Source: Lingula anatina (lineage: Eukaryota > Animalia > Brachiopoda). From it: a DNA stretch of 64,000 bases. The position numbers and the translations under genes were made by a program. The stretch lies in NCBI GenBank assembly GCA_051362555.1, contig CM120648.1, positions 15,868,587 to 15,932,586 of the forward strand, in the 5' to 3' direction. This document shows, piece by piece, positions 11,126 through 50,904 of the stretch. A model generated the notes under the pieces. It saw only the letters and a program-made list of their open reading frames with translations. It was not told the origin of the DNA and made no database searches. Within the stretch, counting starts at the first letter, position 1; each line of letters opens with the position of its first letter.

Positions 11126-11405
11126 TTAATTTCTTCCTGCTTGAATTTCCTTTTTCTTCTCTCCACGATGAAGGAATTCAAACATTCCAAAAGAACACAT
11201 GGCGAATCCCATCACACCGAACGCGATGTATATTTTGTCGTTCATACAGATGAAGTTTGTTGTGGCGTACAGTGAACCCCATGCAATATAAATGGCCGCA
11301 CGGACTGCTACAAATGCCGGCCACTTGTCGTTAGGAAATACATGTCCCACGTATGCTGAAAATATTAAAAAAAAAAATAAATAAATAATATAAGAACAGC
11401 AAAAA

Positions 11406-11436
<31 letters not shown>

Positions 11437-14251
11437 GTACTTAGACATATCAAAAATATTATGTCAAAAAGCGAGAACTTATCAGAAAGTTGAGTATATT
11501 TCGAACTGCAATCTTTTTTTTATCAGGTTTTAAACGTGTGACATTAACAGTATACATTTTCCATTGTACCAGTTGTTATTTCCACAACGAGGCTGAGAGA
11601 AGGATAGAAACCTCAGAGTTCAAACATTTGTCAACGGTTTTTGAAGTATACGACGGTAATTTATTTTTAAAATGTTGAAATTAGCAGACAAATATAATGC
11701 CTGCAGCTTAAATGCTTGCCGTTCACTATGTAACTCTAAAGAACTGTCAGTATTATATATATATAACATCCTTAATATCATAAGTGGATTGACTGCTAGG
11801 GTTAACATGTTTTTAAAGTATAATCCGTCAAAATAAAATAAAAAATAAATAAAAATAAATAAAAATAAATAAAAATAAAACAAAATAAAATAAACTGTTG
11901 ATGTTTGAAAAACCATATATTGTCGAGTGGACCGGTGTTGTCTGTAGTTTCTGAACAGTGTTTGTGAATAGGAGTTTAGACAATTTGCTTAAGGAGGAAG
12001 GCTGGCTTGTATTTCGGTTGGATTCCCTAGGCGAATATATACACGAGGCTAAATATAATTTGTAGGGCACAAATATAAGTTATATGAATGCAAAAATTGC
12101 TTGGTCTTGTCTATTGGCGCTTGTTATACTTTGTCCCTCGCAATGGAAAAAGGCAAGAATTGCAGTAAGCAAAGATGTCCCCAAAGATAGGCGAGTACTG
12201 TAACTCCTGGAACCATCAGCGTTTACTTTTAAAATATATCGGGTCATTTACCTGAAGACTGAGTCATCCACACCGAGTCCGAAAAACCCCAAGCAACCGG
12301 AATAAGAAAATAGAACTCCGTGCTCCTGTTCATCGGATCGAGGAGCAACATGCTAGTCAAGCATGCGCAGTTGCACAGAAATGCCAGGATGTACATGATG
12401 GGCCAGCCCAGGTGTTTGACCAATCTCCCAGCTGCAAGGTTACCAACCAATTGTCCTGCAACGTAGGCCAGCATTACCCACCCGTTATAGTGGATGCCGA
12501 TTTCACAGCTGACAAATGCCTGCGTGGACATAACATATATAATTAAGCATTATGTTCAATTAAGAAGATAATAAAGAAAGAGAAAAAAACCTTATATTTC
12601 CTCCCTTTTATATTCACCTTTACAACACTGCGATTCGTTTCGTTCGATGTATTTGTCTTTGGATTTCCTCTTAGATCAATAGAACTCTTTGGGTACACTT
12701 GCTAACAAAACTGCTCAGAAATCGCAACATATACCTTTGTGAACTCAGTGAAGATAAATTCCTCCTCAACTGCTGTAACCACAAAAAGGGGGATGAGAAA
12801 GATCAGTTTCTTTTTGAACAGTAGATGGCCAATAGCAAAGAAGAAGTCTTTAGATCCGTGCATGGCGTCACCGCTGGATGGGTGGATGTTCTTAACCAAG
12901 CACAACGTTATCAGAAAAGCTGTTCCGGACATTGCTAGAAAACACCCCAGGAGAATATACACTATGTACTGTTCCGGTTGCCGGATGTAGGTCCCGGATG
13001 TATCCTCCCACGGACAGAAAGCTGGTCCACATAGCTGACTTAAATTCAATGGGTTTGGAAGCCCTGTTGCGTTGAAGTAGGTCACCACAGGTTGGTTAAG
13101 TATTAGAGAAGAAACGATATTGCTCCAAACAGTCTCAAATGAGAATATGGCGTAAAACATTCCATTAAACATCCCCATGACTGTATGTCGCTGATTTTTA
13201 GTGATTTCTGCATACTGTAGGGCGAACGTGGTCACGAAAACCCCAGCAGCTATCATTGTCTGCGCATGCACTGAAACCAAATACCCAGATTATATCCACG
13301 ATTAATGCATATTAACGATTTTTGTTTGCACAACGGTGCCTTAATGTGTATGTAAATTGTGTGATCGAGGCACAAATAAATGTCTAACAGGATATACCTT
13401 AAAACACCACACGACATACGTCAGACCCACATATGACAAGAATCTAAGATTTCTTTCAATTTTAAGCACCTTTTCAGAAAGGTGTATAGTTTTATCAGTA
13501 ACCGTTACTACTATATGTGTGTTTCCAGCTTCATAGTTATTTAAATAACGGAGATAGACAAACAAATTCCATTAGAAAGTGGAAACATTAACTTAAAAAT
13601 CGGGTTTACTTTCGAATATTATGTTTCAACACTTCTGGATTAGGTATAACTTGGTTGCGAATAGAAATGAACATAATTCCTATGACATTTAAATCTCTTT
13701 GCAATGCAGTATAAAGGCCTTGCGCGCGATGCATGGCTTTTAAGAATCGGTAAATAATACCTACACACGCCTACACAGAATGCCACAGGAATGAGGATAT
13801 ACGCTTTTACATAGAAATGCACTGCTATCAACACCAACTGTCCGCTCCAACCTAGCAGGATTGAACCCTTGGCGCCTAGAAACCGTCCAATCACAGGGGC
13901 TGTTACAAATGAAAATATGGCACCTCCGTAATTCCCCATCAAAGCATAATGTCCAATCTCAGGATTCAGGATTCCTTCTAAGTTCAATAAAGCTGCTAAA
14001 GGAGAGAATCCCAGCATGTATGCCACCGACAGGACTACCAGCTGTATCAGCGGGGTTCTACTAGACGGCCTGAAGCTGGTTTTTGAGCCCAGCAACGAGG
14101 AATTGTTCTCCTCAGGTGCTGGGGTTTCGTTAGAGGAAATCGGCGACAAGAGAACCTCCATTCTTTGGCTCCCTGCAGTTGATGCATGGGTTGATTCCTC
14201 CTCTATGTCCAAGCCTTCGCAAGACAGAGTTGCCTCTACGACCAGAGACAT
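11126..14251 (-). CDS. unc93a: UNC-93-like protein A (MFS), copy 1; 4 exons, about 506 aa
   Basis: Exons 14251-13765, 13270-12735, 12519-12252 and 11355-11126. All introns GT-AG, phases 1/0/1, open frame. UNC-93 motifs LGAKGSI, VWSNIVSSL, LCGPAFCP, EFTKAFVSCEIG, WGFSDSVWMTQ and FICMNDKIYI are colinear with human UNC93A as recalled. Confidence 0.9.
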
Positions 14252-15692: not shown

Positions 15693-18600
15693 TTACTTTC
15701 TGTTCTCTTTACGGTGAAGGAATTCAAACATTGCAAAAGAACACAAGGCAAATCCCATCACACCAAACACCACGTATATTTTGCCTTCCATACAGATGAA
15801 GTTTGTTGTGGCGTACAGTAAACCCCATGCAATATAAAGGGCCGAACGGACTGCTACAAATGCTGGCCACTTCTCGTTAGGAAACTGATGTCCCACGTAT
15901 GCTGAAAATATACGAGTACAACAATATAAAAAAGTATATGGTTAATAATCATAATTAATATTATAATAAAAACAGTTACAATAATAAAAACAATTTTTAT
16001 CAAATAAATTTAAGTCTTAAGCATTTTACGTGTATTGGAACTACTAACAATTTGTTCTCTACTACAGGTAATCTGATTAGAAAAACGAATTAACTGTCGT
16101 TAAGCGAGTCGATGATGACGTCAGGTAAGAGGTAATTCACGTGAAACGAGTCTTGGGGCGATGTATTCAGAAGGTAAATAAACCACGTGAAATGAGAGGC
16201 GCTCATTCGATGTCGATAAGCCCTGCATCACAGTGTTATTGTGCAGTACTTGTCGGATTCAGAAACGGTGCATTAAGACGGAATAAATTTACGTTTTGTC
16301 AGTGATATTATGGAGGATAAAAAATAGGCGTACTACGTGTATATGAGTACAAGAAAATAAAATGTTGAGGCAAACATGAACATGAATTTGGAATCGACAT
16401 CAAAGTTTACATGATTTTAAAACTAAATACGAATGAGAACATTGATATAAGAAAAACATGGGAAAAGCTAATGAATATAGAATAGTTCTATGTTGTATTG
16501 GACTTTCTTTACGCAGGCACAGTTACACCGACTCACTGCAATTAAAATCAAACTGTTCTGGCAGTTTGTGTGTTTGTTATTAATTGAAAGTTACAAGATA
16601 AAAATAATTTTAATGCAGTTATAAAGCAAAAATATATATAAAAAATATAAATAAAAAATATAAAACCGATCATTCACCCGAAGACTGTGCCGTCCACACC
16701 GAGTCTGAAAACCCCCAAGCAACCGGAATGAGAAAATAGAACTCTATGCCCCTGTTCAATGGATCCAGGAACAACATGCTAGTCAGGCATGCGCAGTTGC
16801 ACATGAATGCCAGGATGTAGATGATGGGCCAGCCTAGGTGTTTGACCAATCGTCCAGCTGCGAGGTTGCTTGGCAACTGACCCGCAACATAGGCCAGCAT
16901 TACCCACCCGTTATAGTGGACGCCTATCTCACAGCTGACAAATGCCTGTATGGACATAAAATATATATTTAAGCTAGATGTCCAGTTAAGAAGACAGTGC
17001 CTGTCTTTTTTCCTCCTTTTATGTTGGTATATAAGAACTGATTAATTTGATTTGAAATATGTCTAATTGAGAAGATATGAATATTAATATGAATAACTAA
17101 TTGAATTTTGTAAACTTATTTATAATTCTTAAGCCACCTCTGTGAACAGTAAATTTTTGTTACAATGTGTGCATTTAGTTGAGTAGGCTGCATACTTTGC
17201 GGCTGTGCGTCTGTAAGGGAGGCGGGGTTCAGAAAAATGATATATTTTACCGTTCACTTCGATTGACTAGGCTCTCGGTCCTTGATACTTACTCCTACCC
17301 CTCCCTCTCGGCCCATTTTCGTCCCCCTCACACACACACTGTAACTTATTCAAATATCCATTTGGTTTAAGCAAGTACCCTTATTCCCTGTGAGAGGTAT
17401 GCCCAGCCCCATCCGACCCTTATCCCTACCCGTCCTGGTATATAGAGGACAAGAAAAAGCATACCTTTGTGAACTCACTGAAGATAAACTCCTGTTCAAT
17501 TGCTATTGCTACAAAAAGAGGGATGATGAGGATCAGTCTCTTCTTAAATATCAAGCTGACGATGACGAAGAAGAAGTCTTTAGAACCGTGCATGGCGTCA
17601 CCGCTGGATGGGTGAACATTCTTAAGAAAGAACATCGTTATAAGTAAAGCTGTTCCTGGCATTGCAAGAAAACACCCCAGAAGAATATACACTATGTACT
17701 GTTCCGGCTGTCGGATGTAGGTCCCGGATGTATCTTCCCATGGACAGAAAGCTGGTCCACATAGCTGGCTTAAATTTATTGGGTTTGGAACCGCTGTTCC
17801 GTTGACAAAGTCGTCTACAGGTTGAATTAGAATCAACGATGAAACGAGGTTGCTCCAGACAGTTTCAAACGAGAACAGGGCAAAGAATATTCCGTTAAAC
17901 ATTCCCATGACGGTATTTTGCGGTTTTTTAGTGACTTCTGAGTACTGTAGGGCGAAAGTCGTTACAAAAATACCACTGGTGATCATCGCTTGCGCATGCA
18001 CTGAAATTAAGATCCCAAGCTGTAATAAATTAGGAATAAATAAATAAATAAATATATAAATATATAAATATTGAATCCCCAGTTGATGCCAGCAACTTAT
18101 AAAGATATTCGTTTTCGTCTTCAACCACTCTTCGAGTAGAATAAAACAAGAAAAATTAATTTCTGGATATGTATGTTTGCGGCCTAACGAGCATCGAATA
18201 ACGTGAAAAATGGACAATGGATGCTGTAAATACTCACATATGCCTACACAGAATGCAACTGGAATGATAATATAAGCTTTCACATAAAAGTGTACAGCTA
18301 TGAAGACCAACTGGCCGCTCCAACCGAGTAAGATTGATCCCTTGGCACCCAATAAACGCCCAATGACAGGGGCTGTTACAAAAGAAAATACGGCGCCTCC
18401 GAAATTGCCCATTAAGGCATAATATCCGACCTCAGGATTCAGAATCCCTTCTAAGTTCAATAAAGCCGCTAAGGGAGAGAATCCGAGCATGAATGCCATA
18501 GATAACACTAACAACTGTATCACCGGGGTTCGGCTGGACTGTCTGGCACCGGGTTGGGAGCGCAGCAACAAGGGCTGTGTCTCTGATGTCAAGGAACAAT

Positions 18601-18724
18601 TGCCAGACGAACCCTGGAGTAATGTTGCCTTCCTAGTGTGGTCCTCTGCAGTTGATGCTTTGGGTGATTCGTCTGCTGTTTCCGTTACTTCGCAAGACAG
18701 AATTGCCTCAACGGCGAGAGCCAT
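15693..18724 (-). CDS. unc93a: UNC-93-like protein A, copy 2; 4 exons, about 499 aa
   Basis: Exons 18724-18238, 18000-17465, 16945-16678 and 15901-15693. The first three exon lengths (487/536/268) and phases are identical to copy 1. Confidence 0.9.
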
Positions 18725-19886: not shown

Positions 19887-22857
19887 TTACTTTTTCTTCT
19901 CTTTACGGTGAAGGAATTCAAACATTGCAAAAGAACACAACGCAAATCCCATCACACCAAACGCAATGTATATTTTGCCGTTCATACAGATGAAGTTCGT
20001 TGTGGCGTACAGTGAACCCCATACAACATAAAGGGCTGAGCGGACCCCCACGAATGCCGGCCACTTTTCGTCTGGAAACATATGCCCCACGTATGCTGAA
20101 AATATAAGTACAACAATATTGGAAAAGTATAGGTTAATAATAATAGTAAATATAGTGATACTAACATAATGATAATAACAGTTATAATAGTGATTTAGTC
20201 TAACACATATTTCGTGCATTGATACTACTAACAATTCGATCTCTACTACAGGTAATCTGATTAGAAAAATGAATTTACTGTCGTTAAACGGGTCGATGAT
20301 GACGTCAGGTAAGAGGGAAGTCATGTGAAAGGCCGAGTCAGTGGGCGGTGTATTGAAAAGGTAAATGTACCACGTGGGTATGAGAGGCGCTCATTCGAGG
20401 TCGATAAGTCCTGCAGAAGGGGCAGTACTGGCGTGCATACTAGATAAAGAGACTGTGTCTAAAGACTAAATGGATTTTCGTTTTGTCAGTGATATAATAA
20501 AGAAAAAAATAGATGTATGGCATGTGTACAAGAAAATACAAGATGAGGCAAACATGAACATGAATGAGTAATAGACATCCAACTATACAGAATTTTAACA
20601 TTGAGCATGTATGAAAACACTGATAAAAGGGAATTTTAAAAAAGCTAATGGATAAACAGTAGTTCTATGGAGTATTGGACTTTCTTTTGCAGGCAAAGAA
20701 GCATCTACTCATTGCAATTAAAACCAAACTGTTCTGGATGTTTGGATGTTTGTTTTTCTTTGAAAGTTAAAGGACAAAACATTATTTCTGTCTTTGAAAA
20801 GCAAGAATATACATTAAATCCGACCTGAAGACTGAGTCATCCACACCGAGTCCGAAAAACCCCATGCAACCGGAATCAGAAAATAGAACTCCATGCCCCT
20901 GTTCACCGGATCGAAGAGCAACATACTGGTCAAGCATGCGCAGTTGCACAGAAATGCCAGGATGTACATGATGGGCCAGCCTAGGTGTTTGACCAACCGT
21001 CCAGCTGCGAGGTTGCCTGGCAACTGTCCTGCAACAAAGGCCAGCATTGTCCAGCCATTGTACTGGACGCCGATCTCACAGCTGACAAATGCCTGTTGGA
21101 ATATAAAAATTGATTAGTACAAAATACATGTGCAATTGATAAGACAAACATATAACTGCAATGAATTAATAAAGTATTTATATATTTATTTATATTTCTT
21201 CAACCACCTCTGTGAACAGTAATTTTTCTTAAATTTTAGTGCATATAGTTGTGTAGAACGGATATTTTGTGGCTGTGTGTGTGACGGGGATGGGGCTAAC
21301 CATTCAAAAAACAAAATGATATACGTACTTGTCGATTCACGTCGTTTGAATATGATCTGGGTCCGTGATACTTCCCCCTACGCCCCCCCCCCCCACTTCG
21401 TCTATCGCTTCCACACACACGATAACTTAATTTAATATCGAGTTGGTTTAAAACTACCTTTCCCCTGTTCTCTACGTTTACATGCTGAATAAATATATGC
21501 CATGTCCCACTCTAGCCTAAACCCAGCACCCGTCCCTCCTTTATCCTAAATGTTATCTACACGGACGACCAGTAATAGCATACCTTTGTGAATTCAGTGA
21601 AGATAAACTCCTGTTCAATTGCTATTGCTATAAAAAGAGGAATGATAAGAATCAGCCTCTTCTTAAATATTAAGTTGACGATGACGAAGAAGAAGTCTTT
21701 AGAACCGTGCAAGGCGTCTCCCCTGGAAGGGTGAACGTTCTTAAGCAAGCACAAAGTTATGAGAAAAGCTGTCCCGGGCATTGCAAGAAAACACCCCAGA
21801 AGAATATACACTATGTACTGTTCCGGCTGTCGGATGTAGGTCCCGGATGTATCCTCCCACGGACAGAATGCTGGTCCACATAGCTGACTCAAGTTCATTG
21901 GGTTTGGAACCGCTGTTCCGTTGACAAAGTCGTCTACAGGTTTGTTTAGAATCAGCGATGAAACCATGTTGCTCCAAACGGTGTCAAACGAGAACAGGGC
22001 AAAGAATACTCCGTTAAACATTCCCATAACTGTATTTTGCGGTTTTTTAGTGATTTCTGAATACTGTAGGGCGAAAGTGGTCACAAAAACACCACTGGTG
22101 ATCATTGTCTGCGCATGCACTGAAATTAAGATTACGAGCTGTGATACATTTGGTCAACTATTTTAATAAGTAAATTAAAATATAATTATAAAAACAACAT
22201 TTGAAACCCCAGTTGTAGCTATATCCGTTAATAAATACCTTCGTTTGCACTTTCAACCTGCCTTAGTAATGGAAATTCAAGTGGGATTTTTTTAAGTAAA
22301 ATTCATGACTGAATATGTATATTTATGGTCAAACGCGCATAGAATAATGAACAGTGAATGCTGTACTTACATATGCCTATGCAGAATGCGACTGGAATGA
22401 TAATATAAGCTTTTACATAAAAGTGTACAGCTATGAAGACCAACTGGCCGCTCCAACCGAGTAAGATTGATCCCTTGGCACCCAATAAACGCCCAATGAC
22501 AGGGGCTGTTACAAAAGAAAACACAGCGCCTCCGTAATTCCCCATCAAGGCATAATATCCGATCTCAGGATTCAGAATCCCTTCTAAGTTCATTAAAGCA
22601 ACTAAGGGAGAGAACCCAAGCATGTATGTCATAGATAAGAATAACAGCTGAACCACCGGGGTTCGACTGGACTGCCTGGCGCCCGATTGGGAGCGCAGCA
22701 ACAAGGGCTGTGTCTCTGACGGCGCAGAGGAATTACCAGATGAACCATCCGACAATAATGCCTTCGTAGTGTGGCTCTCTCCAGTTGATGCATATGTTGA
22801 TTCTTCTTCTTTTGCCGTTACTTCGCAAGACAGAATTGCCTCTACGGCGAGAGCCAT
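19887..22857 (-). CDS. unc93a: UNC-93-like protein A, copy 3; 4 exons, about 499 aa
   Basis: Exons 22857-22371, 22119-21584, 21092-20825 and 20095-19887. Starts MALAVEAILSCEV; GT-AG introns. Confidence 0.9.
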
Positions 22858-23742
22858 TTTGAAAGGTACAGTGGTAGGCCTTGGTAGATATTCGGTGGAA
22901 GGTCTTACATTGAGAGGGTCAACCAGCGTTTGTGTAATCTGCAATGTAAAGACGGTTAGCATTGGTAACCGTACACATATAGATGGCAATATACCATCGA
23001 TCCAATAACAAGTTGGTCAGATAAGATTTCAATGGTAAACAAGCCTGTAAAATGACCTGTGTTCTCCATCCAAGGCCGTTAGAATGAGAACGCTATAGGC
23101 TAGAAGTCCTTACATGTGGGTGAAATTGCAATCTCAAGTGAAAAAAATGTCATATATATTGGTAATTTGTTTTTTTCCAAGCACGCAATACTGTGATAAA
23201 AAGCATCGCAACAGGAATATTTTAGGTTTCCAATGAAACGCACAAAATAAACGGAGTTTCCAGTCATGGGTCTTTAAGGTACTTCAAAATCTTTTTTTTT
23301 TTTTTTTTTTGCATGTGACGTGATTCATTGTATCTGCTAAATCATTTTCGACGAGTAATTGTCTATAGTTGCCTATATGATATTCTAGGATATTTTTGCA
23401 GTATACGTTTGGCGCTTGAACTTGATGGCATTTTGTTTAAAATAATAGTAAATATTGAATGTAGTATATACGAACATTATGAATAATAATATATCAAAAC
23501 GAAGCGTGCATCTACGTCAAAAAGTGCTTGTGAGAAGCATCGATGATTTTATTGATTTAAAAACTGATTTAATCAATTTAAGTGGACTTTCCTTTGATAA
23601 TATGAGTTGCTAAAATGTTATGTAACACACCCTCCATTTATTTATTTCATAAGAAATGGGTTTAATGAGCAATAATTGCCAAATACCTTAACGTGTCTCT
23701 ATCCAAATCGCTCAAATTGCTACATAAAATAAGGAAACAATT

Positions 23743-29119: not shown

Positions 29120-29154
<35 letters not shown>

Positions 29155-29210
29155 TTTGCTTAAGTCAAGTTTTTTTTTAGGTCTTTACTTTTTATTACAA
29201 AAAATATGAC

Positions 29211-30499: not shown

Positions 30500-30544
<45 letters not shown>

Positions 30545-31230
30545 TCACGAAAATTAATACAAGACACTTACAACACAATAAGAGACAGAAACACCTTCCA
30601 CACACCATTCACACACTGCAAACGAAGTTCTTACAAATGTTGATTAAAAAAAATCATTTGAAGTGTTAATTTCCTGACCAATCTAGTACTACAACAAAAA
30701 AAGTGGTAAAAGACCATATATGTACTTTTGAGCTATTTCTTTTTTCTCTGTGAATTTGGTGACATTTGATGGCGTCTTTTCAATTTTATGACATTTCTTT
30801 ACATCTGAAGAAGTCACAGTGAAACAGTGGATTTGAGGGGGTACCTCTTATAAAGTTTACTAAATTGGTATAAAATGTGTATATTTTCACCACTATTTTG
30901 TATCTTTTTAACTATTAATCATGTTAGACACGGTATCTGTAATAAAAGGCACTATTTTTAACAATTTACAGCTGTGAGGTGATCATTTGTAAATAAAAGT
31001 ACATGGGAATGGGGGTGGGACAACCCTGTTGACCAATGTTGTAGATCTCTGTGCTGGCGGCCGTTTTTTTATTTTCCCCAAAAAATACCTGTTCCACTTC
31101 TTGGATTTTTCTAGATTTTTAATATGATCACATGGACCACTCAAAGACTCGGAAAAAAAAAAAAAAAAAAAAACATACTAAAATTTTTTTGCTATTAGTC
31201 CCGGGTTAAACCATTTTTTCTTAGACTACC
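30102..31230. mobile_element. Composite repeat-derived block at the duplication junction, including the right end of the Tc1-like family
   Basis: 30749-31043 is highly similar to 50592-50888 and ends in the TIR gggtgggacaaccctgttgaccaatgttg-TA. The rest is unclassified, with long T and A runs. Confidence 0.6.
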
Positions 31231-31346
31231 CCGCCGCCCCTTCCCTCCCAAACACACGATAACGTAATTAAACTTAATTAAATGCCCAGTACTTTACCCC
31301 CCTGCTATCTGTGTTTTTTGTTGAAAAAATATATACCAAGTCCTAC

Positions 31347-32581: not shown

Positions 32582-33160
32582 TTTGAAAGGTACAGTGGTA
32601 GGCCTTCGTAGATATTAGATGAAATGTCTTACATTGAGAGGGTCAACCACTAGTTGTGTAATCTGCAATGTAAAGAAGGTTAGCATTGTTAACCGTACAC
32701 ACAGATGGCAATATACCGTTGATCCAATAGCAAGTTGGCCAGATAAGATTTCAATGGTAAACAAGCCTATAGTTGCCTATATGGTATTCTAGGATATTTT
32801 TGCAGTGTACGCTTGGCGCTTGAACTTGATGGCATTTTGTTTGAAATAATAGTAAATATTGAATGTAGTATATACGAACATTATGAATAATAATATATCA
32901 AAACGAAGCGTGCATCTACGTCAAAAAGAGAAGTATCGATGATTTTATTGATTTAAAAACTGATTTAATCAATTTAAGTGGACTTTCCTTTGATAATATT
33001 AGGTGTTAAAATGTTACGTAACACACCCTTAAATTTTTCTGCCTGATACGCTGACATTTATTTCCTAAGAAATGGGTTTAATGAGCAAATATTGTCAAAT
33101 GCCTTAACGTGTCTCTATCCCAATCGCTAAAATTGCTAAAAAATAAGGAAACAATATATT

Positions 33161-35739
33161 CTAAGTCCTTTTTACTTTTGGAATTAAAATAAAAGTCATA
33201 AATGAACACAAAGACAGTCCAACAGAACCAAATACAAGGTATATTTTAGCGTCCAAACAGAGGCTGTTAGAAAGGGCGTAAATCACAGTCGATGAAACGT
33301 AGTTGCTGGTTCTTGCTGTGGCAAATGCTGGCCATTTTTCGTCTGGAAACGTGTGCCCTATGAAAGCTGAAAAAATTAAATTTAAATAACCACAAACGTT
33401 GGAATAAATTTGGACATCATACATGTAATTATGCAATTAACCAAATAAAAAGGGATAAGAAGAGTAAAGTAGGCGTGAAAGGACTGTTACAAGTACGCCG
33501 AAAACTGTTATTTTAATTAAGTTAATTACTTTTCACTATGTGGAATGACATAGAAAAGGATCACCAATTGAAAAATCTTGCATTTAACATTTTTACCATG
33601 CCTACCATTAAGACAGATACATACCCATCGTTTGGGTCAGCCACACGGCGTCCGCTACACCCCAGGCCGCAGGGACAAAGAAGTGATACTCAATAATAAT
33701 ATCCGCTGGATCAAGTGCCAACATACTGGCCAGGCATGCGCAGTTGATGCAAGTGGCAAACACGTACATGGCTGGCCAACCGGTGAACTTGATGAGGCGA
33801 CCAATCACAGCGTTTCCTATGCTTCTTCCGGCCGAGTAGCATATCATGGACCACCCGTTGTAATTGACACCTATTACACAGCTCACAAATGCCTGAAAAT
33901 ATTGGAGGACATTACTATATATTAATTGGTAAGAGCTGCCAATTTATCATGAGTTGACGGACCTTTTTACTAAGATGTACACTGCATGAATTTTGTCACA
34001 GAACCAAAGCGTTAAATCGTTGCACTCAATAAAATTTCATACACTACTCTTCTTTATTTAGCCTACATTAAACCGCCTTTAAATGTTGAAATCTAAGACT
34101 TTCAAATCCTGAGTGGCACCTTGGTAAACTCGGTGGCAATAAACTCTTGCTCCACACCAACCGTAACCAACAAAGGCACTAGCAATACAAGCTTCCTCTT
34201 CCACAGTAGATTCAGAACACTGTTGCAAAAATCTTTGGCGCCATGAAGCGCGTCTCCGGACGTGGGGTGAATATTCTTAAGCAACAAAAGGGTGACACAG
34301 AAGGCTATGCTGATGAGTCCGATGTACGACCCCAGTAGGATATACACAATATATTGTTCAGGTTCTCTAATGTGTGTACCAGTGACGTCCTCCCAAGGAC
34401 AAAAAGATGGCCCACACAACTCGCTCAAGTTCCCAAACTCCGATGACTCCGTTCTATTATCCATTTCCTCGGTTGTGAGGACCAGAGATGAAATGAGATT
34501 AGCCCATATAAAGTTGGTTGTGAATATCGTTGAAAACAGCCCGTTGAAGAACCCCATTACGTGGTGAAGCGGTTCCTTTGTGATTTTGGCGTAGTCAACT
34601 GCCAGTGCCGTGATGTAAACGTTACTGGTTATCATACCATTGGCAAAAACTGAAAATAGTCCAACCAATAAACTTAGAATTTGTTTCAAAATATACATAT
34701 TTAATATGCATAAATTTACGGTAAATATGGCACAATATGATATATGCCGTCACAATAAAGAAAAATAAACCAATGCCAACTCATAATCATTAAAAGACAA
34801 GAAAATGATAAACAACAATATAGCCAAAAATATAAAGATAAATTGACCTACTATCTGCACAATTGTTCCGTACAGTGTCAGTTATCATTTTCAGTTTATT
34901 TATTTATGTATCTATACAAATTTGGCTACAATTTTGAACGAAGATTTTTAACAATACCCACTATTTAAGATACAAATTAGTCTTTGAACCATCCCGTACG
35001 TGTCAAATGTACAGGTCCACAGTCGAAATCTTATAAGACACCGACGGGTCTTAATACAACCGGAAGGTTCAAAATAACAACTCGCAAATAACAGATGATC
35101 TTGTTTTTCAGATAAAATATATTGATTTATTTCAGTTCTGGGAAAATCAATAAAATAATTTTCGTCTAAATAATATCGATTTCCTATTTCTTTTGATCAA
35201 ACAGGTGCACTGCAAATGTTGCCATTCAGAGAACACGAGTAGATTTATCTTTAAATAAATTCCACTTTCAAACTATCATTTTGCTCTGGAGTTCTTATGT
35301 GAGTCCTCCTTATCATACTATCATACTAGTCCAAGCCACAGAAACAGTTATACTTACATATACCGCATAGAAACGCCACGGGTAACAATATGTAAGGCTG
35401 AACGTAGAAATGGGCCGCAATGAATACTATCTGGCTCATTGATCCCAGCATCACTGATCTTTTGGCCCCGGCATAACGTGAAATAATTGGAGATGTCACT
35501 AAAGACAACATGCAGCCACTGAAATTACACATTAAACCGTATAGACCGATCTCCGGATTCAAGATCCCTTCTAAGTTAAGTATTGAGGCCATTGGAGCGT
35601 TCGAGAGCATGAAAACCACGGCGAGTATTATCAACTGAGAGACGGGTCCCCATTTTGAGGACTTCTTCTCGTTAGAAGCGAGTAGCAGTGACTTTTCGGA
35701 GTTTTCAGTCGAGGCTAGAGCATTTCCGAGCTTCCCCAT
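33161..35739 (-). CDS. unc93a: UNC-93-like protein A, copy 6; 4 exons, about 461 aa
   Basis: Exons 35739-35358, 34649-34120, 33892-33625 and 33366-33161. Exon lengths are identical to copy 4. Confidence 0.88.
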
Positions 35740-37362
35740 AGTCCTATAGTCACAAACCAAGGGTTGATTTAAATGGAAGCGTATTAGGTTGAACAGTGTT
35801 GTATGGAGCTACCTTCCCAAGCTATAGCCGTCCCTGTTAATGTTGTTGCATATATAACTGATAATAAAAGACGCTGTCTCTATCTTCAACAAAGACTCAT
35901 GTGCCCTACATGCCCGAAATAAATATATCTGCATTGCGTAAACCGCTGTGGCGCATTGGATGTTTAAGTAATCTGTTAACAACATGAGAAGATCCATTTA
36001 GACATGGCCTTGAGTATAAGGACCATTCCGAGGCCCCTTCGTACTAACTGTGGATCGATCTATCTCCAAGGAGATGCTCGCTAAACTGCAATCAAATTCA
36101 TTGGGGAAAATGTCTGTCATGCCTATTTAAGCTGCTAGGGGTAATTAATTATCGTTTAAAGCCTCAATAGGCTTGCCAGACATCTAAGCCACTTAAGCTG
36201 ACATCAATTTAGCGAGAAATCCCTTGTAGATGGATCGATCCTGCTTGACCGATCTAGGTAAGAGAACTCAGTCATAGACGTTGAAAGAGCATGACCCATA
36301 TGGTGGGAACTTTCCCCTCCGACTTAACTTTGGATCTAAGAGCAGCAGTGTTTAAAGACCCAATGAAGCAAACCAAAAAGGATAATAATAATAATAATGA
36401 TCTCCAAATTTCTGCGATTCTTTCTCTATTAGCTATGCATATCTGTTTATAAAATGACACTCTATAAAACTAAATTTAGATGTCTATGTTTACCGTCTCA
36501 AATGACATCCATCAGAAAAAAACTTTGCGGGAGTCCCTCAAAATAAGAAAATAAGGAATAAAAACGGTTTATGGATTGTGATTTTTTAAAATGTGTTTAG
36601 ATATGGCTCATCTTGCAGGTAAATGTTGAAATCTTAAGAACAATATGTCCACTGTGTATAGTTCCAGTGTTAATCATGTGCCTTATAGAGGTAGTGTATG
36701 TCGGTGCTGTGGAACATCACGTGGCGATAACGCCTCCTTGTTTTGTCTGATCTGAATGTGTGAACCGTGCAAGGTCTCCGTGAACTTTAGGGTCACCAGT
36801 TGAAGACACAGTCAGTCGACATCACGCCATATTACATCTGATGTCGCTGATAAGTTTTGGTGTTGACTAAATGAGATCAGTTAATCATTAACGGTTCATT
36901 TAACCTGCTTACTGCCAATACGTTTTAAGGGATACATTGAGCGCTTCACAGTCCATTTATGCGTGATAGAATATTTTCTTGTGCAGTACATTAATAAATA
37001 GAATAACATGTTGTTTTTTTATATATATCTTTATTGCATCCCTTTTTCTGAATTGTTTCTGTTCTGTTGAAGAGAATGCCGAAGTCTACACGTCAGCATG
37101 GGAGAGTTTAATATACCACTATTTCCTCTGTCCTAGAGTAGATTCTATAATAATAATTTATCTGTCCAGCGATATGCAATTCAGCACTTACTTGTAGTTC
37201 AAATTTACATCACGGATAGTAGGGATGATAAACACTAAATATGTTCAATTGTATTTAAAAGCTTCCGATATACCTTTTTATCTTATTTATCTATTCATTT
37301 ATTTATTTGCTTATGTCACGTTGTTTTTTGGGTCTTTACTTTTTATTACAAAAAAATATGAC

Positions 37363-40300
37363 TCATTTTTCAGAGTACTCTGTGTGAATCTTCACTGATT
37401 TCTCATGCCGATGTAGGAGGTCAAATGTCATGAATGTAGTCAGTGACAGTCCTAAGAAACCGAAGGTGATGTAAATCTTGGTATCCATGCACATCAAGTG
37501 GGAGAGTGCGTACAGCACGCCGTACGTACCGTATAGGCCTATGCGTACTGTCACAAAGGCGGGCCATTTCTCATCAGGAAACATATGACCTATGTAAGCT
37601 GCAAGAAAAAATACATCGGAGTACAAATATGTGAAAAGACGTTATACAAATGTCACTAAATTATTTATATTTAGTTTTATTTGTGTACAATTTGCAGATT
37701 AAATAATTCATTTAAAAAGTCTGGCTTAATTTAAACTTGTTGTATGTCATCTCTAGAAGTTCTGGGGGTTTCACAAAAGTTGAACGACGGTTTTAGAAGT
37801 GATTGCACTGCTGTTTACAGGGTTTCATATAAAGTTCTAAATTCCCTTTTTAATTTTTTCTTGCAAATTTACCTGAACCGCGGGATACTACTGTGGTTGT
37901 TTAGAGATTGGTTATTACTCTCAAATGTGTTCAAGGATGTCAGCTAAATTTATTGTAGGTCCGCAAGCAAAGTCGCCTCAAGTAATGGGCTATCCTGTTT
38001 AGCTGTCTCCGGTATTAGCTTAATCTTAAAAATCTGGCATTCTGTGAAACTAGTCCTTTAAAAGAAAGCGTGTTTACGAACCTGCCGATTGCGTCATCCA
38101 GACAGCATCAGCCAATCCCCAGGCTCCTGGCAACAAGAAATGATACCCGTCCCACATGACATCCGGGTCAAAGGTCACCATACTTATCAGACATGCGCTG
38201 TTGGTGCATACAGCGAAGACGTACATGAATGGCCACCCCGTGTACTTGACCAATCGGCCTATCACTAGGTTACCTAGACACTGGCCTAACGAGAAGCATA
38301 TGATACTCCATCCATTGAAGTTAATTCCAAGTTCACAGCTGACGAAAGCCTGTAAAATGAAATTGAATTTCAGAGAGCAATTAATAAAAAAGACAAATAA
38401 TAAGCATTAAAAAGGGAATTTAATAAAGCAGTAAATTGGAAAAAATGTTTCTAGGGAAATGTACACAATGTTAACGTAGGTTCAATTCGCATAAGAGGTT
38501 TAGTTTTATACAACAACAAAGTACAAAATGTGAAATTAAACAATTTGACACTGTTTACATTGTATCACTGCTTTTTAATTTTTCAAAATTGGCATTTTAT
38601 ATTGAAAAAAGGTGAGGTGTTAAAAATAAATGTGCATAGTCAACGGTTACACCTGAAAGGAAAAAGGGACATTTCAAAAAGAAATAAAAGAAAAATAAAA
38701 ATAAATAAAATAAATAAACAGTCAAGGGCTCCTCAGAAGTGCGGGGGTTTCTAGCGCAAGCAAAAATACCTTTGTATATTCAGTCAGTAAAAGCTCCTGT
38801 TCAACTGCTATCATACCAAACACCGGAAGTAGCAATAGCATTTTCCGGTTCCATAGCAAACGGAGAATGGCGTTGCAGAAGTCTTTGGATCCGTGAGCTG
38901 AATCTTTCGATGTTGTTTTGATATTTTGCACAAATATGAGGGTTATACCGAACGCCAAAGTAACGAGACCAAGGAAGCAGCCTAGTAGGATATATACTAT
39001 GTATTGTTCTGGTTTTGTGATGTGGGTACCAGAGGTGTCCTCCCAGGGGCAGAAAGACGCTCCGCACAACTCGCTCAGGTTACCGTAGGCTTTCGTTCCG
39101 TTCCCGTTCGACTCCGGAGTGCTTAAAACGAGCGAGGAGATCAGGTTGCCCCAGATAGAGTTGGTGACGAAGATGGAAAAACCTTTGGGAATACAAAATA
39201 AAGTAAACATTAACTTTATAGTAATGCATTTCAGCCGAAAGAGTCTAATGTTAGGCTTGGGAGTGAAATAAGTATGGATAACGAGATAAAATGTCCCAAG
39301 AAGCATAATCTAGAAATATTATCGCGATAAACATGTCCAGTGTAAGTATTAAAATAAAAACTGATGTTAATGTTTTCATTTTTATTCCAATGCCAATTTC
39401 CAGTATTACCTAACCCGTTGAACATGCCCATAACCGACTCCGGGGCCTGCCCAGTGACGTCAGCATATTGGTATGCCAATGTTGTGACGTAGACACCGTG
39501 AGTGATGAACGTCTGTGCGTGGACTGGAATGAATGACAATTATTTTAAAGGTTTTTTTTCGATGAAAAGAGAACAATCACAAATCCTGAAACTTGATGTG
39601 CATCCACAACCAGTTGATTCGTGGACTTACAGATCGGCCATATTTGGTCCGAGGATCTGTGAGTCTGCGAATTAACTTTAGTTGTGAAGTGACCTTACTG
39701 CAGCAATGGATATATCACTCAAAAGGTCTTGAACAAATTTTTAGAAAATTAAATTGTTATTAAACTTAAGCAACCAGTCCAATCCAAAATCAATTAAACT
39801 AAATCCCAAACAAAGAATATCTTACCATGTTAATTCACCTATTCATTTGCCTAAAAATATTGATATTAAAACTTTTACATTTAATTACTACACTGTGATC
39901 TTAAGTTGAAAGTATTTGTTTTCATGACCAGTGGATAGACTTTTTGTAAATATGGACTTATTTACCAGCTGTACACTTACGTATTCCCACAATAAATGAT
40001 ATTGGTATTAAAACATACGGAATCACATAGAAGTGTGCAGCGATGAATAATCCCTGGCCAAAGAATCCTAAAAGCAGCGACCCTTTAGCACCAACCAGAC
40101 GCGTTAAAATCGGCGACGTCAAGGAGGAGAGAACCGCCCCGCCAAAATTACCCATCAGCGCAAACAAACCGATTTCTGGGTTAAGTATGGCTTCCAGATT
40201 CAGCAATTAAGAGAGCGGGGAGAACCCAAGCATCATGGCGACAGCAATAATGACGTTTTGGGAGAGAGGAAACCATTTCGTGTGCTTCTCTTTGGGTTGG

Positions 40301-40365
40301 TCTTGAGACAACAAAAGTTTCCTTTCAGAGGCGTCGTAAGGGAGATGTCCGTTTTCACTTTTCAT
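37363..40365 (-). pseudogene. unc93a: UNC-93-like copy 7: 5 exons, in-frame TAA at codon 53 (recent pseudogene, null allele or sequence error)
   Basis: Exons 40365-39981, 39523-39410, 39182-38770, 38349-38082 and 37598-37363. Exon 1 reads ...MLGFSPLS*LLNLEAILNPEIG (TAA at 40209-40207). The rest of the 471-codon frame and all splice sites are intact. Confidence 0.8.
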
Positions 40366-41000: not shown

Positions 41001-41034
<34 letters not shown>

Positions 41035-42041: not shown

Positions 42042-45000
42042 ATGGAGCTCAGCCGCTCCGGGCCCGTTCCCGAAAGTATTCCCGAGGAGAAACGACTGCT
42101 CCTTGGCTCCAACAGCGCCAAGCCTCGTCGCAGCAGATGGGGTCCCGTTCGACAGCTTCTGGTGTTATCTGCTGTTTATATGCTAGGATACTCACCACTT
42201 ACAGCTTTAATGAACTTAGAAGGGATACTTAATCCCGATATAGGATTATACGCGCTGTTGGTGCATTATGGAGGGGCGCTGGTTTCGTTTTTCACTGCTC
42301 CGATCTTGGCACGGATTTTTGGCGCCAAGGGATCGGTCTTGTTGGGGTTGTTTGGCCAGGGTTTGTTCATTGCCGTCCATTTCTATGTGGAGGTGTATTT
42401 GTTGCTGCCCGTGTCTTTCCTCGTAGGCATAAGTAAGTATAGATGAACATAAGACGTCAAACGTTATATTGCGTAAAATGTCACTTGTCAAGAACGGGAT
42501 AGTATAATTGCTTATATTTAAATTTCTGTTACCCCTACCCATGAGTTTTACATAGAGACAGACATATCTGATTGCATTTTAATTGTTAATGTGGGTTTTG
42601 TGTATGCGTGTGTATTTGATAAAATATGGCAGGCAAAATACGGTCCCCAGCCTTGTTGGGATGAAGAGACTAAATTGTATCGCTATTACCCTGGCACCAA
42701 AGACCTACTGCACCCAACTAACCCCCTCCCCCCCCCCCCCCCCCCCAGTCTTCAGCACTTCTATTATGGGTCAGCATGTCCTTTGATGGCGTACATGTCA
42801 CAGATATAATGTGGCTCTCCTAGTTAAATAGTAACTGGCGAAGAACAATGACTGCTCCGTATAGTACATTAGCACTCAACCGATATAGCAGTGTCACTGT
42901 ATCGATAGATCGTTCCACTTTATACACTCAGCGTGCAGTGCAAATGATATAAAAGACCCCTTCTCTTCGTTATCGGCAATCGAGAGAACGTCTGGTTAAT
43001 ACACGTGACATAGGTGGATGTGAGATATCACGTCACCCCCACCTCCCCCACAAGAGAGACCTGTTTGATAAAACTAAAGAATTTGGGGCACTTTGCAGCA
43101 ATCAGTACATGTACGCGGAACATACTTTGCGCGTGGCACTGCCTCAACATATCAATACCCCCTCTTTACTGCTGTGCCTGGAACCTTTCATGGGAGGGGA
43201 CAACACGTGGGACGTGTGCTTGTACATGTATCCCCCCTCCTTTTAACGTCGGCGGTGTCACCATCGTCGCCTCCTTTGTTCAAGAAAATAAATAAATAAA
43301 AGACGACGAAACGTACCCAGCAATTTTGATCCCTGAACATGGCGCCTGGCACTTGGTAGTAGAATTGCTCCCGTCTGTTATTATTTTATTATTATTATAA
43401 TTATTGGCAAGGCGAATACCGGGTATTTTGGTCCTCGTGACCCCCCCTCCCCTTCCGCAACCTCATGAATCTGGATCGTTTCACATGCGTTTCAGTGTAC
43501 TTCCTAAACTGTGTGTAAGTTTGTTTTTCCTTTTTTTTGCCCTTAAATTATAACTTAATGATTAATTTCAGCGCATGCACAGATGTGGATCAGCAACGGG
43601 GTGTACGTTACAACTTTAGGCTTGGAATATTCGGAGATCACGGGTCAACCTCAGGACTCCGTTATGGGTGTCTTCCAAGGCGTTTTCTTTAGCATTTTTA
43701 CCACGTGTGGAGTCTGGAGCAATTTGGTGTCATCATTAGTTCTAATAAAACCTGTAGACAGAACAGTAAACGGATCCACGGTAGTCCCGCAAATAGGAAA
43801 TCTAAGCGATTTGTGTGGGCCTGCTTTTTGCCCGTGGGAAGATACCTCCGGGACATACATAGAGCAACCGGATCAGACTTTAGTGTATATAATACTTGGA
43901 GCGTTTCTTGGGTTTATTTTGGTTGCCTTTACGGGGTGCCTTTTGCTCCTTCGGAATATCCATGCCAACACAGGGGACGCTTTAAATGGAGCTGGTGATT
44001 TTTGTTCGGCCACGATAAAGTTGCTGTGGAGTGGACGCATGCTTCTTATGATTCCTGTCGTGGCATATATTTCTGTTGAACAGGAACTCATTCAAACAGA
44101 ATTCACCAAGGTAGGCATTTCTGAATTAATGTGTGCAACATAGAGTCTGTTTTTCAAAGACTAAAAAAGCATTTAACGGGTGCTAGTAGTTAAAATTTAA
44201 CTCTGTCATGTGGATTTAATAAACCTTAACAAATTATTTTATCATAGCAATAGAATGCAACTAAATTCAAGTTGATGTTCGAAACTTACTTGTAAAAATA
44301 TTTGATCCAGAAAAGAATGCCATTGCAATGCATTAAAAATAACACTAGTAGTTTCGTTTACCACCTTACGTGTTCGTAAAATGTATCCTGGTAGCCATTG
44401 CTTCTCACATTTCTCACAACCATAAGGCCTTCATCAGGGAATGAGAGACATACATATGTTGACCATATCCAGGTGCACTATTTTAATTTTATTACATATC
44501 TAAGTAACAACGCAGATGGTTACTTTGATTACGTATTCCAGGCGTTTGTAAGCTGTGAGATCGGCATCCAGTACAACGGCTGGTCTATGATCTGTTACGC
44601 CAGCGGTCAAATCATTGGATCCACAGTGACTGGGCGATTGTTGAAGTACACGGGTTGGCCGATAATGTACGTCTTCGCCACGGCTGCCAACGCCTCCTGC
44701 TTAGCCAGCATGTTACTGCTGGATTCTTCCTCCAAAACCATGCTGTTTTACTTTCTGGTGCCCTTTGTCTGGGGGCTGGCCGATTCCGTGTGGCTGACGC
44801 AATCTTCAGGTAAGAAAGGCCGCCATGTTACGCTTGGTGCTGTGACGTCATATTAAGTCACCTAATAGTCTTTTAATATGACGTCATATTCCCTGAAGGT
44901 AAATTTTCCTACACGACGTCCTATGGGACACCAAAGGAAACTTACAGGACTCCAGTACGATAAATTAATGCTGGGGAGTGCAGTCTTGAGTTAGATGTAT

Positions 45001-45451
45001 AGCACTGCTGTAATAGTTTATATGGGAAGTGATATTGAACTATCTTTAGTTGTATGTTGGGTCGGACAAGTAATTTTTTGGGACTCGATCTCTCTGTAAT
45101 ATTGAGCAACTCAGTAAAGTTTCGGTAATTAAGGTTATATGATGTAAAGAAAGCAGTCGTTTTAAAATAACAAACCCATTTAATGCCTGCTTCTCTGTTT
45201 TGACTTTTTTAGCATTATTATTTTTATTTTCAGCCGTTGTTGGACATTTCTTCCCAGATCAGAAATGGCCTGTTTTCGTCACCATACGCAGCGCCATCTA
45301 TGCTACAATGGCGGTCGTTTTTGCCTATTCCAACTTTGTCTGCATGGATGCTAAGATTTATATCGCATTTGGCGGTGTTTTGATAGCACTTGTATCATTC
45401 ATGTCTTTTACAATGGTTCAACGGACTAAGAACAAGATGGTAGCATATTGA
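42042..45451 (+). CDS. unc93a: UNC-93-like protein A, copy 8 (inverted orientation); 4 exons, about 471 aa
   Basis: Exons 42042-42432, 43572-44110, 44542-44809 and 45234-45451. GT-AG introns with the same phases. Motifs GVWSNLVSSL, LCGPAFCPWED and WGLADSVWLTQ. AATAAA at about 45789. Confidence 0.9.
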
Positions 45452-50886: not shown

Positions 50887-50904
50887 TATATCAAGTATCA
50901 AACT

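What the first reader, a model, noticed from the sequence alone, without database searches (positions are those of the whole stretch)
11126..45451. Tandem expansion of UNC-93/UNC93A-like MFS genes undergoing birth-and-death evolution
Seen: nine gene bodies in 34 kb (six intact, one with a nonsense codon, two half-pseudogenes) in at least four divergent subtypes (1-3; 4/6; 7; 8), all sharing three intron positions. Known: vertebrate UNC93A is a single, poorly characterised gene; its relatives regulate K2P channels (C. elegans UNC-93) or traffic endosomal TLRs (UNC93B1). Inference: diversified transmembrane segments with a conserved loop suggest a lineage-specific repertoire of transporters or chaperones with different substrates or clients.
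Basis: partly seen in the sequence, partly recalled or inferred. Interest (0 to 1): 0.8.

Follow-up and report, generated by a model that had tools for sequence, protein, structure and literature searches.

The report
Lamp-shell UNC-93 array with lysosome tags
A lamp shell (the brachiopod Lingula) carries a row of six intact, one stop-broken and two half copies of a gene for an UNC-93-type membrane protein; such gene rows are common in this animal, but most copies carry a short tail motif that likely sends them to lysosomes, where they likely work as small-molecule transporters.

Summary
The array is real: six intact genes, one gene with a stop at codon 53, and two halves. All seven full genes share three introns; G7 has a fourth. 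Annotated Lingula anatina proteins match three copies at 97.8-99.4%. The window genes and other Lingula paralogues form one long-stemmed clade with no non-Lingula member among 132 outgroup proteins (SH 1.0; UFBoot 75 in a smaller tree). The two halves flank the junction of one segmental duplication.

Selection is purifying (omega 0.14) with no positive-selection signal (M8 vs M7, p=0.67), so adaptively diversified helices are not supported. RNA shows only G6, at about 1-2 RPKM; G1-G3 and G8 were not detected in three runs each.

Added here: 14 family-conserved positions are replaced, and an N-terminal acidic dileucine motif occurs in 9 of 11 subtype representatives against 3 of 90 outgroups. 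This suggests re-routing from the plasma membrane to endolysosomes. Localisation and substrate are untested.

Gene expansions are routine in Lingula. The scan earlier noted a variable-exon UNC-93-type locus on another piece of this genome. Interest 0.4.

The parts
11126..14251 (-). G1, subtype A, intact, 506 aa; exons 14251-13765, 13270-12735, 12519-12252, 11355-11126; dileucine motif degenerate
   Evidence: 99.4% to XP_013390506; motif
15693..18724 (-). G2, subtype A, intact, 499 aa; exons 18724-18238, 18000-17465, 16945-16678, 15901-15693
   Evidence: 97.8% to XP_013390507
18566..18583 (-). G2 acidic dileucine motif ETQPLL (residues 48-53)
19887..22857 (-). G3, subtype A, intact, 499 aa; exons 22857-22371, 22119-21584, 21092-20825, 20095-19887; mosaic (upstream and exon 1 like the A-half, exon 2 like G2)
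   Evidence: RefSeq fragment P0184 matches exons 3-4 at 95%
22699..22716 (-). G3 acidic dileucine motif ETQPLL
23363..30101 (.). Duplicated block, copy 1 (G3 upstream, G4, spacer, G7-like 3' half); 200-column windows 86-99% identical to 32767-38224
23743..27911 (-). G4, subtype B, intact, 461 aa; exons 27911-27530, 26464-25935, 24474-24207, 23948-23743; intron 2 holds 1227 nt absent from G6
27852..27869 (-). G4 acidic dileucine motif EKSLLL
29210..30101 (-). G7-like 3' half pseudogene: last 143 nt of the penultimate exon (100% identical to G7), intron, last exon with acceptor AG changed to CG and 2-nt and 4-nt deletions; lower end approximate
30102..31346 (.). Junction filler between the two halves; contains a high-copy interspersed repeat (30749-31047, 89% to 50594-50892)
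   Evidence: very high contig depth in run X3
31347..32581 (-). G3-like 5' half pseudogene (A-half): start codon ATG changed to ATT, 49-nt insertion in exon 1, 1-nt and 88-nt deletions in exon 2, no exons 3-4
   Evidence: RefSeq P0003 (XP_013379701) ends in the same frameshifted tail
32767..38224 (.). Duplicated block, copy 2 (A-half upstream, G6, spacer, 3' part of G7)
33161..35739 (-). G6, subtype B, intact, 461 aa; exons 35739-35358, 34649-34120, 33892-33625, 33366-33161; the only copy with exon RNA reads (about 1-2 RPKM)
35680..35697 (-). G6 acidic dileucine motif EKSLLL
37363..40365 (-). G7, subtype C, five exons (40365-39981, 39523-39410, 39182-38770, 38349-38082, 37598-37363); nonsense TAA at codon 53 (40209-40207)
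39183..39409 (-). G7-only 227-nt phase-1 intron, likely gained; no similar sequence elsewhere in the window
40309..40326 (-). G7 acidic dileucine motif ERKLLL
42042..45451 (+). G8, subtype D, intact, 471 aa; exons 42042-42432, 43572-44110, 44542-44809, 45234-45451; head-to-head with G7
   Evidence: 98.1% to XP_013379715
42084..42104 (+). G8 acidic dileucine motif EEKRLLL

Best explanation
This is a tandem array of a Lingula-restricted, UNC93A-derived subfamily of predicted 12-helix MFS proteins that gains and loses copies under purifying selection, and whose products are likely sorted to endosomes or lysosomes by an N-terminal acidic dileucine motif, where they likely act as small-solute transporters. 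Shown: gene structures, pseudogene lesions, the segmental duplication whose junction made the two halves, one Lingula-only clade among the proteins retrieved, omega well below 1, the motif and its rarity in outgroups, replacement of 14 family-conserved positions. Inferred: a founder copy changed quickly (stem about 0.9-1.0 substitutions per site), acquired the motif, radiated into about ten subtypes, and still exchanges tracts between neighbours by conversion or unequal crossover. Untested: localisation, transport, substrate, and whether subtypes differ in function.
For: Gene models. Clade of 7 window + 11 Lingula RefSeq proteins, SH 1.0, stem 0.86, none of 132 other proteins inside (150 of 174 sequences kept, 24 fragments or multi-unit proteins dropped); IQ-TREE on 37 sequences: stem 0.99, UFBoot 75, sister to a bivalve clade with 100. 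dN/dS 0.22-0.25 among G1-3, 0.45 for G4/G6 with dS 0.064; M0 omega 0.14. Model pLDDT 73.6, pTM 0.77, best PDB match UNC93B1 (E 2e-11, TM 0.74) ahead of other MFS. [DE]xxxL[LI] in 6 of 7 window proteins, 9 of 11 subtype representatives, 3 of 90 outgroups in the same 35-residue stretch, 10 of 78 outgroups anywhere in the N-tail; E48, L52, L53 are the only N-tail columns listed as invariant in the clade and rare outside it. The same motif type (EDRALL) sends MFSD1 to lysosomes and LL-to-AA sends it to the surface (PMC6819133 passages); UNC93A is reported at or near the plasma membrane (PMC5671512 passages). Mosaicism: G3 groups with the A-half at 21 of 31 informative sites upstream and in exon 1 but 5 of 22 in exon 2 (p=0.002).
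Against: A six-residue motif is weak evidence: per-sequence shuffle probability 0.01-0.11 for the nine carriers, the sequences are related so the Fisher p (5e-9) overstates it, and G1, P0009 and P0183 lack the canonical form. No UNC-93 protein has a shown substrate in what I read: the fly orthologue did not transport the sugars and amino acids tested and co-localised with TASK channels (PMC7591606 passages). Expression is thin: no exon coverage on G1-G3 in X12 and X15, 0.04 depth in one G3 bin in X18, none on G8 bins from 42096 on in X15-X17, one bin at 0.27 on G7, and no splice joint reached the listing threshold; tissues are not given. Monophyly support was only 75 in the bootstrap tree. No brachiopod or phoronid relative other than Lingula was named among the hits, so 'Lingula-restricted' may mean brachiopod-wide. 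No long read spans the array; the longest laid pieces were about 0.8-1 kb.
Confidence: 0.5

Rival explanations
1. Ordinary turnover without a new role: the copies do what ancestral UNC93A does (likely accessory subunits of two-pore potassium channels at or near the surface), and the dileucine-like stretch only tunes endocytosis or is incidental.
For: C. elegans UNC-93 and fly CG4928 are linked to TASK-type channels and CG4928 showed no transport (PMC7591606 passages). Lingula has high gene-family turnover and 380 MFS_1 genes, with PCFT (16), SLC43A3 (11) and NAGT1 (11) among its most expanded families (PMC4595640 text and supplement part 6). No positive selection; low expression. Owenia also has at least five divergent UNC93A-like proteins.
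Against: Lingula keeps two less-diverged UNC93A genes outside the clade (XP_013413708, XP_013382517) that could hold the old role. The clade has lost 14 of the positions conserved in 70% or more of outgroups, including the TM1 Q-S-S signature, and subtypes with saturated dS keep the motif.
Confidence: 0.3
2. Escort proteins: the clade convergently works like UNC93B1, binding membrane clients such as Toll-like receptors and using the dileucine motif to carry them to endosomes, different subtypes serving different clients.
For: Closest solved fold is UNC93B1 in TLR3 complexes; UNC93B1 traffics TLRs to endolysosomes (PMC3576711, abstract start in listing); an endosomal sorting motif fits; the luminal cysteine loop is strongly conserved (77%).
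Against: UNC93B1 is the only UNC-93 family structure that the PDB sequence search returned, so the match is expected; it scores 35-41 bits against 230-300 for invertebrate UNC93A-like proteins. No positive selection as an immune arms race would predict. The modelled last helix runs to residue 498 of 499, leaving no long C-tail. No client was tested.
Confidence: 0.12
3. Part of the array is an assembly artefact: the block holding G4 and the block holding G6 are two haplotypes joined in tandem.
For: G4/G6 differ by dS 0.064 only and exons 3-4 are 98-99% identical; Lingula heterozygosity is 1.6%. In run X3 the contigs over G6 exon 2 show only G4 letters at the five listed diagnostic sites, while a 413-nt exon-1 contig differs from G6 at 3 places. 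No G4/G6- or G7-type protein came up in three protein searches, though those searches also missed known paralogues.
Against: G4/G6 differ at 28 of 461 residues, against 3 of 506, 11 of 499 and 9 of 471 for window-versus-RefSeq alleles. RefSeq holds both the frameshifted A-half (P0003) and G3 exons 3-4 (P0184) on one 210-kb contig, with two different exon-2 sequences. X3 contigs cover the A-half-specific end of the junction (31297, 31397). G1-3, G7 and G8 are far too divergent to be alleles.
Confidence: 0.08

Closest known systems
UNC93A / C. elegans UNC-93 / Drosophila CG4928 (Pfam PF05978, MFS clan)
   Same: Predicted 12-helix MFS fold, luminal cysteine loop, 37 conserved positions kept, phase-0 intron after helix 7 shared with distant homologues (six held proteins end just after that motif, five of them outside the clade); language-model neighbours are UNC93A clusters.
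   Different: Only 23-33% identical to the invertebrate UNC93A-like proteins aligned, including Lingula's own two; 14 conserved positions replaced; N-terminal acidic dileucine motif; very short C-tail; about ten subtypes instead of one or two genes.
UNC93B1 (TLR trafficking chaperone; PDB 7C76, 7C77)
   Same: Best structural match (TM 0.73-0.74); endolysosomal destination is inferred for both.
   Different: 15-16% identity; far lower profile score than UNC93A-like proteins; no long C-tail; TLR binding untested.
Lysosomal MFS exporters with N-terminal dileucine signals (MFSD1, MFSD8/CLN7, SLC17A5/sialin)
   Same: 12-helix MFS protein with [DE]xxxL[LI] in the cytosolic N-tail (PMC6819133 passages).
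   Different: Different MFS families; the likeness is the motif and fold only; localisation and substrate are shown for them and not for this clade.
Other Lingula gene-family expansions (chitin synthases, PCFT, SLC43A3, NAGT1; Luo et al. 2015, PMC4595640)
   Same: Lineage-specific multi-copy families, several of them MFS transporters.
   Different: UNC93 is not among the 20 most expanded families in that table and the term does not occur in the supplement text.
Variable-exon UNC-93-type locus elsewhere in this genome (scan note e1-10589174, unreviewed)
   Same: Same protein family, same animal, diversification of the N-terminal seven helices is claimed there.
   Different: Here each gene has its own last two exons; no pair of held array-clade proteins joins different N-halves to an identical tail; a sequence look-up with the G8 allele did not return that locus.

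Membership tests
UNC-93 family (PF05978) | Pfam UNC-93 score above the curated cut-off (22.9 bits) | tested here: inconclusive
   G8 allele 40.8 bits and five other clade proteins pass; the G1 and G2 alleles score 19.9 and 15.4, P0007 17.5, and P0003 and P0008 have no hit. Single exon ORFs gave no UNC-93 hit. G3, G4, G6, G7 spliced proteins could not be scanned.
UNC-93 family (PF05978) | 12-helix MFS fold closest to UNC93B1 | tested here: met
   Model of the G2 allele P0001; Foldseek ranks 7c77_B and 7c76_B first; profile search of PDB sequences returns only UNC93B1.
UNC-93 family (PF05978) | Luminal cysteines (loop 5-6 pair, after helix 7, before helix 12) | tested here: met
   C243, C248, C346, C467 kept in all subtype representatives that cover them.
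UNC93A orthologue group | TM1 L-Q-S-S-L-N signature and other positions conserved across UNC93A-like proteins | tested here: not met
   Q92, S93, S94, L99 replaced in 9 of 9 representatives; 14 positions lost and 37 kept among columns conserved in 70% or more of 132 outgroups.
UNC93A orthologue group | One-to-one orthology with vertebrate UNC93A | tested here: inconclusive
   Clade nests among invertebrate UNC93A-like proteins, sister to bivalve sequences; no vertebrate UNC93A was named among the 20 representatives looked up; Lingula has two less-diverged paralogues.
UNC93A orthologue group | Association with K2P/TASK channels | not tested
   No Lingula K2P sequence was retrieved; literature link from PMC7591606 passages.
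UNC93B1 | Sequence closer to UNC93B1 than to UNC93A-like proteins | tested here: not met
   35-41 bits to UNC93B1 vs 230-300 bits to single-domain invertebrate UNC93A-like proteins.
UNC93B1 | Binds and traffics endosomal TLRs | not tested
   No TLR sequence was held; no complex prediction was run.
Dileucine-sorted lysosomal MFS transporters (works-like comparison) | [DE]xxxL[LI] in the cytosolic N-tail, conserved among relatives | tested here: met
   6 of 7 window proteins, 9 of 11 subtype representatives, 3 of 90 outgroups. The consensus pattern is recalled; the MFSD1 example is.
Dileucine-sorted lysosomal MFS transporters (works-like comparison) | Lysosomal localisation and solute export | not testable with these tools
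   Needs cell imaging and transport assays.
Birth-and-death multigene family | Tandem duplicates of mixed age, some kept under purifying selection, some pseudogenised | tested here: met
   dS from 0.064 to saturation; omega 0.14; G7 nonsense and two decayed halves; local conversion-like tracts also present.
Adaptively diversifying receptor/transporter repertoire | Sites under positive selection | tested here: not met
   M8 vs M7 p=0.67, M8 vs M8a p=0.44 on 7 genes, 428 codons; power is limited by few sequences and saturated dS.

The most novel reading that the evidence does not exclude
A brachiopod lineage re-routed an UNC93A duplicate into the endolysosomal pathway by gaining a dileucine signal and rewriting its cavity helices, then expanded it into about ten subtypes that escort different membrane clients such as Toll-like receptors: a second, independent origin of UNC93B1-like chaperones in an invertebrate.
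Probability: 0.12. Interest if true: 0.75.

Novelty: new variant of a known kind. Interest (0 to 1): 0.4.

Why it matters
UNC93A is still an orphan: transporter or channel subunit is unresolved in the papers read. A natural series of about ten diverged, purifying-selected paralogues with a likely lysosomal signal offers a practical handle, because mutating the leucine pair should move them to the cell surface for substrate screens, as was done for MFSD1. It would also show that the UNC-93 scaffold reached the endolysosome more than once. The array as such is ordinary for Lingula, whose genome is known for fast gene-family turnover.

Tried and rejected
No whole genome was held, so copy number outside the window rests on RefSeq protein records. 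Pfam scans of single exon ORFs gave no UNC-93 hit, and phmmer of one ORF against PDB gave only a chance hit; profile searches were needed. Positive selection: tested and not found. The A-half as a plain recent copy of G3: rejected, dS 0.22 against 0.064 for G4/G6; conversion-like mosaicism explains it better. The two halves as a working chimeric gene: rejected, the start codon, frames and one acceptor are broken and half an exon is missing. A variable-exon/constant-tail layout like e1-10589174: no support in held proteins. G7 stop as fixed or polymorphic: not resolved, the difference table showed 40 of 269 rows and none at that place. The run index listed no RNA holder, which is no evidence either way. 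Searches for G4/G6/G7-type proteins found none but also missed known paralogues, so this is weak. Hydropathy counting found 7-11 peaks and was not used for topology. No complex prediction was run. Literature searches found nothing on this array: 'Lingula anatina'+'UNC-93' 0, 'UNC93'+'brachiopod' 0, 'unc-93'+'expanded'+'lophotrochozoa'+'paralogs' 0; searches listed no title on it. The library lacks most subscription papers, and figures of the Lingula genome supplement could not be seen.
Full report
Observation. The window is AT-rich animal DNA without gaps. tblastn with exon ORFs finds UNC-93-like exons only from 11.1 to 45.5 kb. Models built from coordinates give six intact genes (G1, G2, G3, G4, G6 on the minus strand, G8 on the plus strand; 461-506 aa), G7 with one in-frame TAA at codon 53, and canonical intron ends throughout. 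The seven share three introns; G7 has a fourth of 227 nt. Two halves lie between G4 and G6: a G7-like 3' half and a G3-like 5' half, each with several lesions. The four subtypes are 49-57% identical.

Source and reality of the copies. Annotated Lingula anatina proteins match G1, G2 and G8 at 99.4, 97.8 and 98.1%, so the window is another haplotype of that brachiopod. The reference also has the A-half with the same frameshifted end (P0003) and G3's last two exons (P0184), all on one 210-kb contig. Contigs of two other DNA runs (2 of 10 holders laid) touch 30 of 30 bins in each half of the array, but none is longer than about 1 kb on the stretch. G1's last exon was outside the laid stretches. 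The old copies cannot be alleles. The G4/G6 pair is probably a true duplication, but run X3 shows a G4/G6 mosaic, and no G4/G6- or G7-type protein was found in three incomplete searches, so long reads are still needed.

History of the array. Self-alignment shows 23363-30101 repeated at 32767-38224, at 86-99% per 200-column window. The two halves sit on either side of the junction, separated by 1.2 kb that includes a high-copy repeat. One duplication, or a duplication followed by one deletion, accounts for G4/G6 and both halves (inference). G4/G6 differ by dS 0.064; the A-half differs from G3 by dS 0.22. Informative sites group G3 with the A-half at 21 of 31 sites upstream and in exon 1, but with G2 at 13 of 22 sites in exon 2 (p=0.002-0.004). 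A 143-nt stretch is identical between G7 and its half copy. Neighbours therefore appear to exchange tracts.

Family. Pfam UNC-93 is passed by the G8 allele (40.8 bits) and five other clade proteins, but not by the G1 and G2 alleles. A profile of 11 Lingula proteins finds only UNC93B1 among PDB sequences and 315 clusters at E below 1e-30 among 1.84 billion representatives. The model of the G2 allele (pLDDT 73.6) matches UNC93B1 best, and the Atlas neighbours are UNC93A clusters. In a tree of 150 sequences (24 of 174 dropped as fragments or multi-unit proteins) the seven window genes and 11 Lingula records form one clade, SH 1.0, stem 0.86, with none of 132 others inside. IQ-TREE on 37 sequences, three of them added fragments, gives stem 0.99 but UFBoot only 75, with a bivalve clade as sister at 100. 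Lingula keeps two less-diverged UNC93A genes outside the clade, and Owenia has its own set of at least five. Only 20 of the representatives were looked up by name. The copies are not orthologues of separate conserved genes.

Selection. Pairwise dN/dS is 0.22-0.25 among G1-3 and 0.45 for G4/G6. My own codon models on 7 genes and 428 codons give omega 0.14, M8 vs M7 p=0.67 and M8 vs M8a p=0.44; mean omega by helix is 0.13-0.22. The luminal cysteine loop is 77% identical among nine subtype representatives against 35-57% for helices. So the conserved loop is real, but helix divergence looks like long divergence under constraint. Power is limited by few sequences and saturated dS.

What is distinctive. 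Among columns conserved in 70% or more of the 132 outgroups, the clade keeps 37 and loses 14, including the Q-S-S signature at the end of helix 1 and positions at helices 8, 11 and 12. In the otherwise variable N-tail, E48, L52 and L53 are invariant and rare outside the clade. They form an acidic dileucine motif, present in 6 of 7 window proteins and 9 of 11 subtype representatives, against 3 of 90 outgroups in the same stretch and 10 of 78 anywhere in the N-tail. G1, P0009 and P0183 lack the canonical form, the sequences are related, and single-sequence shuffle probabilities are 0.01-0.11, so this is suggestive rather than proof. The consensus pattern is recalled. In MFSD1 such a motif (EDRALL) is required for lysosomal delivery (PMC6819133, passages), whereas mammalian UNC93A is reported at or near the plasma membrane (PMC5671512, passages).

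Expression. Five of nine listed RNA runs were laid, 6-25% of each read, tissues not given. G1-G3 had no exon coverage in X12 and X15 and 0.04 depth in one bin in X18. G6 exon bins had depth 0.3-2.2 in X16 and up to 1.5 in X15, mostly on the expected strand; 4 of 4 X16 reads carry G6 letters at four diagnostic sites, while 2 of 2 X15 reads carry the G4 letter at one other site. That is roughly 0.6-1.8 RPKM; zero counts bound the others below about 0.3-0.5 RPKM. X15 reads on G4 may be the same G6 reads. G7 had one bin at 0.27 in X17, and G8 bins from 42096 on had none. No splice joint reached the listing threshold. A working repertoire is neither shown nor excluded.

Mechanism. Most likely (0.5): a founder copy changed fast, gained the sorting motif and radiated; the products are sorted to endosomes or lysosomes and move small solutes by the MFS mechanism. 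The fold, motif and evolutionary pattern are shown or predicted; localisation, transport and substrate are inferred. Rivals: retained ancestral role as K2P accessory subunits (0.3; the fly orthologue showed no transport and co-localised with TASK channels, PMC7591606, passages); UNC93B1-like escorts (0.12); partial assembly artefact (0.08).

Novelty. No paper on this array was found (searches returned 0; searches listed no relevant title), and UNC93 does not occur in the text of the Lingula genome supplement. RefSeq already annotates several copies as 'unc-93 homolog A(-like)'. The genome paper reports the highest gene-family turnover among the bilaterians compared and 380 MFS_1 genes with several expanded MFS families (PMC4595640, passages and supplement part 6 of 24). 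The expansion is therefore expected; the motif gain and signature rewrite make it a new variant of a known kind. An unreviewed scan note (e1-10589174) describes a variable-exon UNC-93-type locus on another piece of this genome; I found no such layout among the proteins held here. Final interest 0.4.

Noticed in passing
window 18001-18237 (-): G2 intron 1 is 237 nt, a multiple of three and free of stops, so exon 1, intron and exon 2 form one 449-codon ORF; 1 of 22 introns, 0.004 expected from base shuffles. Noticed after the fact; retention would insert 79 residues in helix 4, so likely chance.
   Followed up: partly
window 39183-39409 (-): G7-only intron with the same four bases across both splice junctions; likely an intron gain; no related sequence in the window.
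   Followed up: partly
window 40365-42042: G7 and G8 are head-to-head with start codons 1.7 kb apart; the gap holds high-copy repeats.
   Followed up: no
window 37349 and 37476, run X3: The only contigs laid on G7's last exon in this other sample carry the 2-nt deletion and extra base seen in the pseudogene half; G7 may be broken there by a second route, or its own contig was filtered out.
   Followed up: partly
window 34236-35787, run X3: That sample's subtype-B contigs are G4-like in exon 2 and G6-like in exon 1, a sign of exchange between copies or of a different copy number.
   Followed up: partly
RefSeq P0184 vs window 19887-21101 and 31561-31701: The reference assembly joins an A-half-like exon-2 piece to G3 exons 3-4, so G3 differs in structure between haplotypes.
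   Followed up: partly
RefSeq records P0007, P0008, P0009, P0017, P0018, P0039: Six more clade records lie on the same 210-kb reference contig but have no close match in this window, so the cluster continues outside it; others lie on three further contigs.
   Followed up: partly
proteins P0023, P0025, P0029, P0031, P0033: The annelid Owenia fusiformis has at least five divergent UNC93A-like proteins, a separate expansion; P0020 (Solemya) and P0021 (Strigamia) hold two UNC-93 units each.
   Followed up: no
window 50905-51756 (-): 283-codon stop-free frame with coiled-coil character, only weak Pfam hits below cut-off; possibly transposon-derived.
   Followed up: no
window 62588-63712 (+): 374-codon stop-free frame without Pfam hit; from recall it resembles the C-terminal part of a LINE ORF2.
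   Followed up: no
window 3683-4303 and 47123-48696: A 158-nt unit in four tandem copies and a 789-nt direct duplication at 86%.
   Followed up: no
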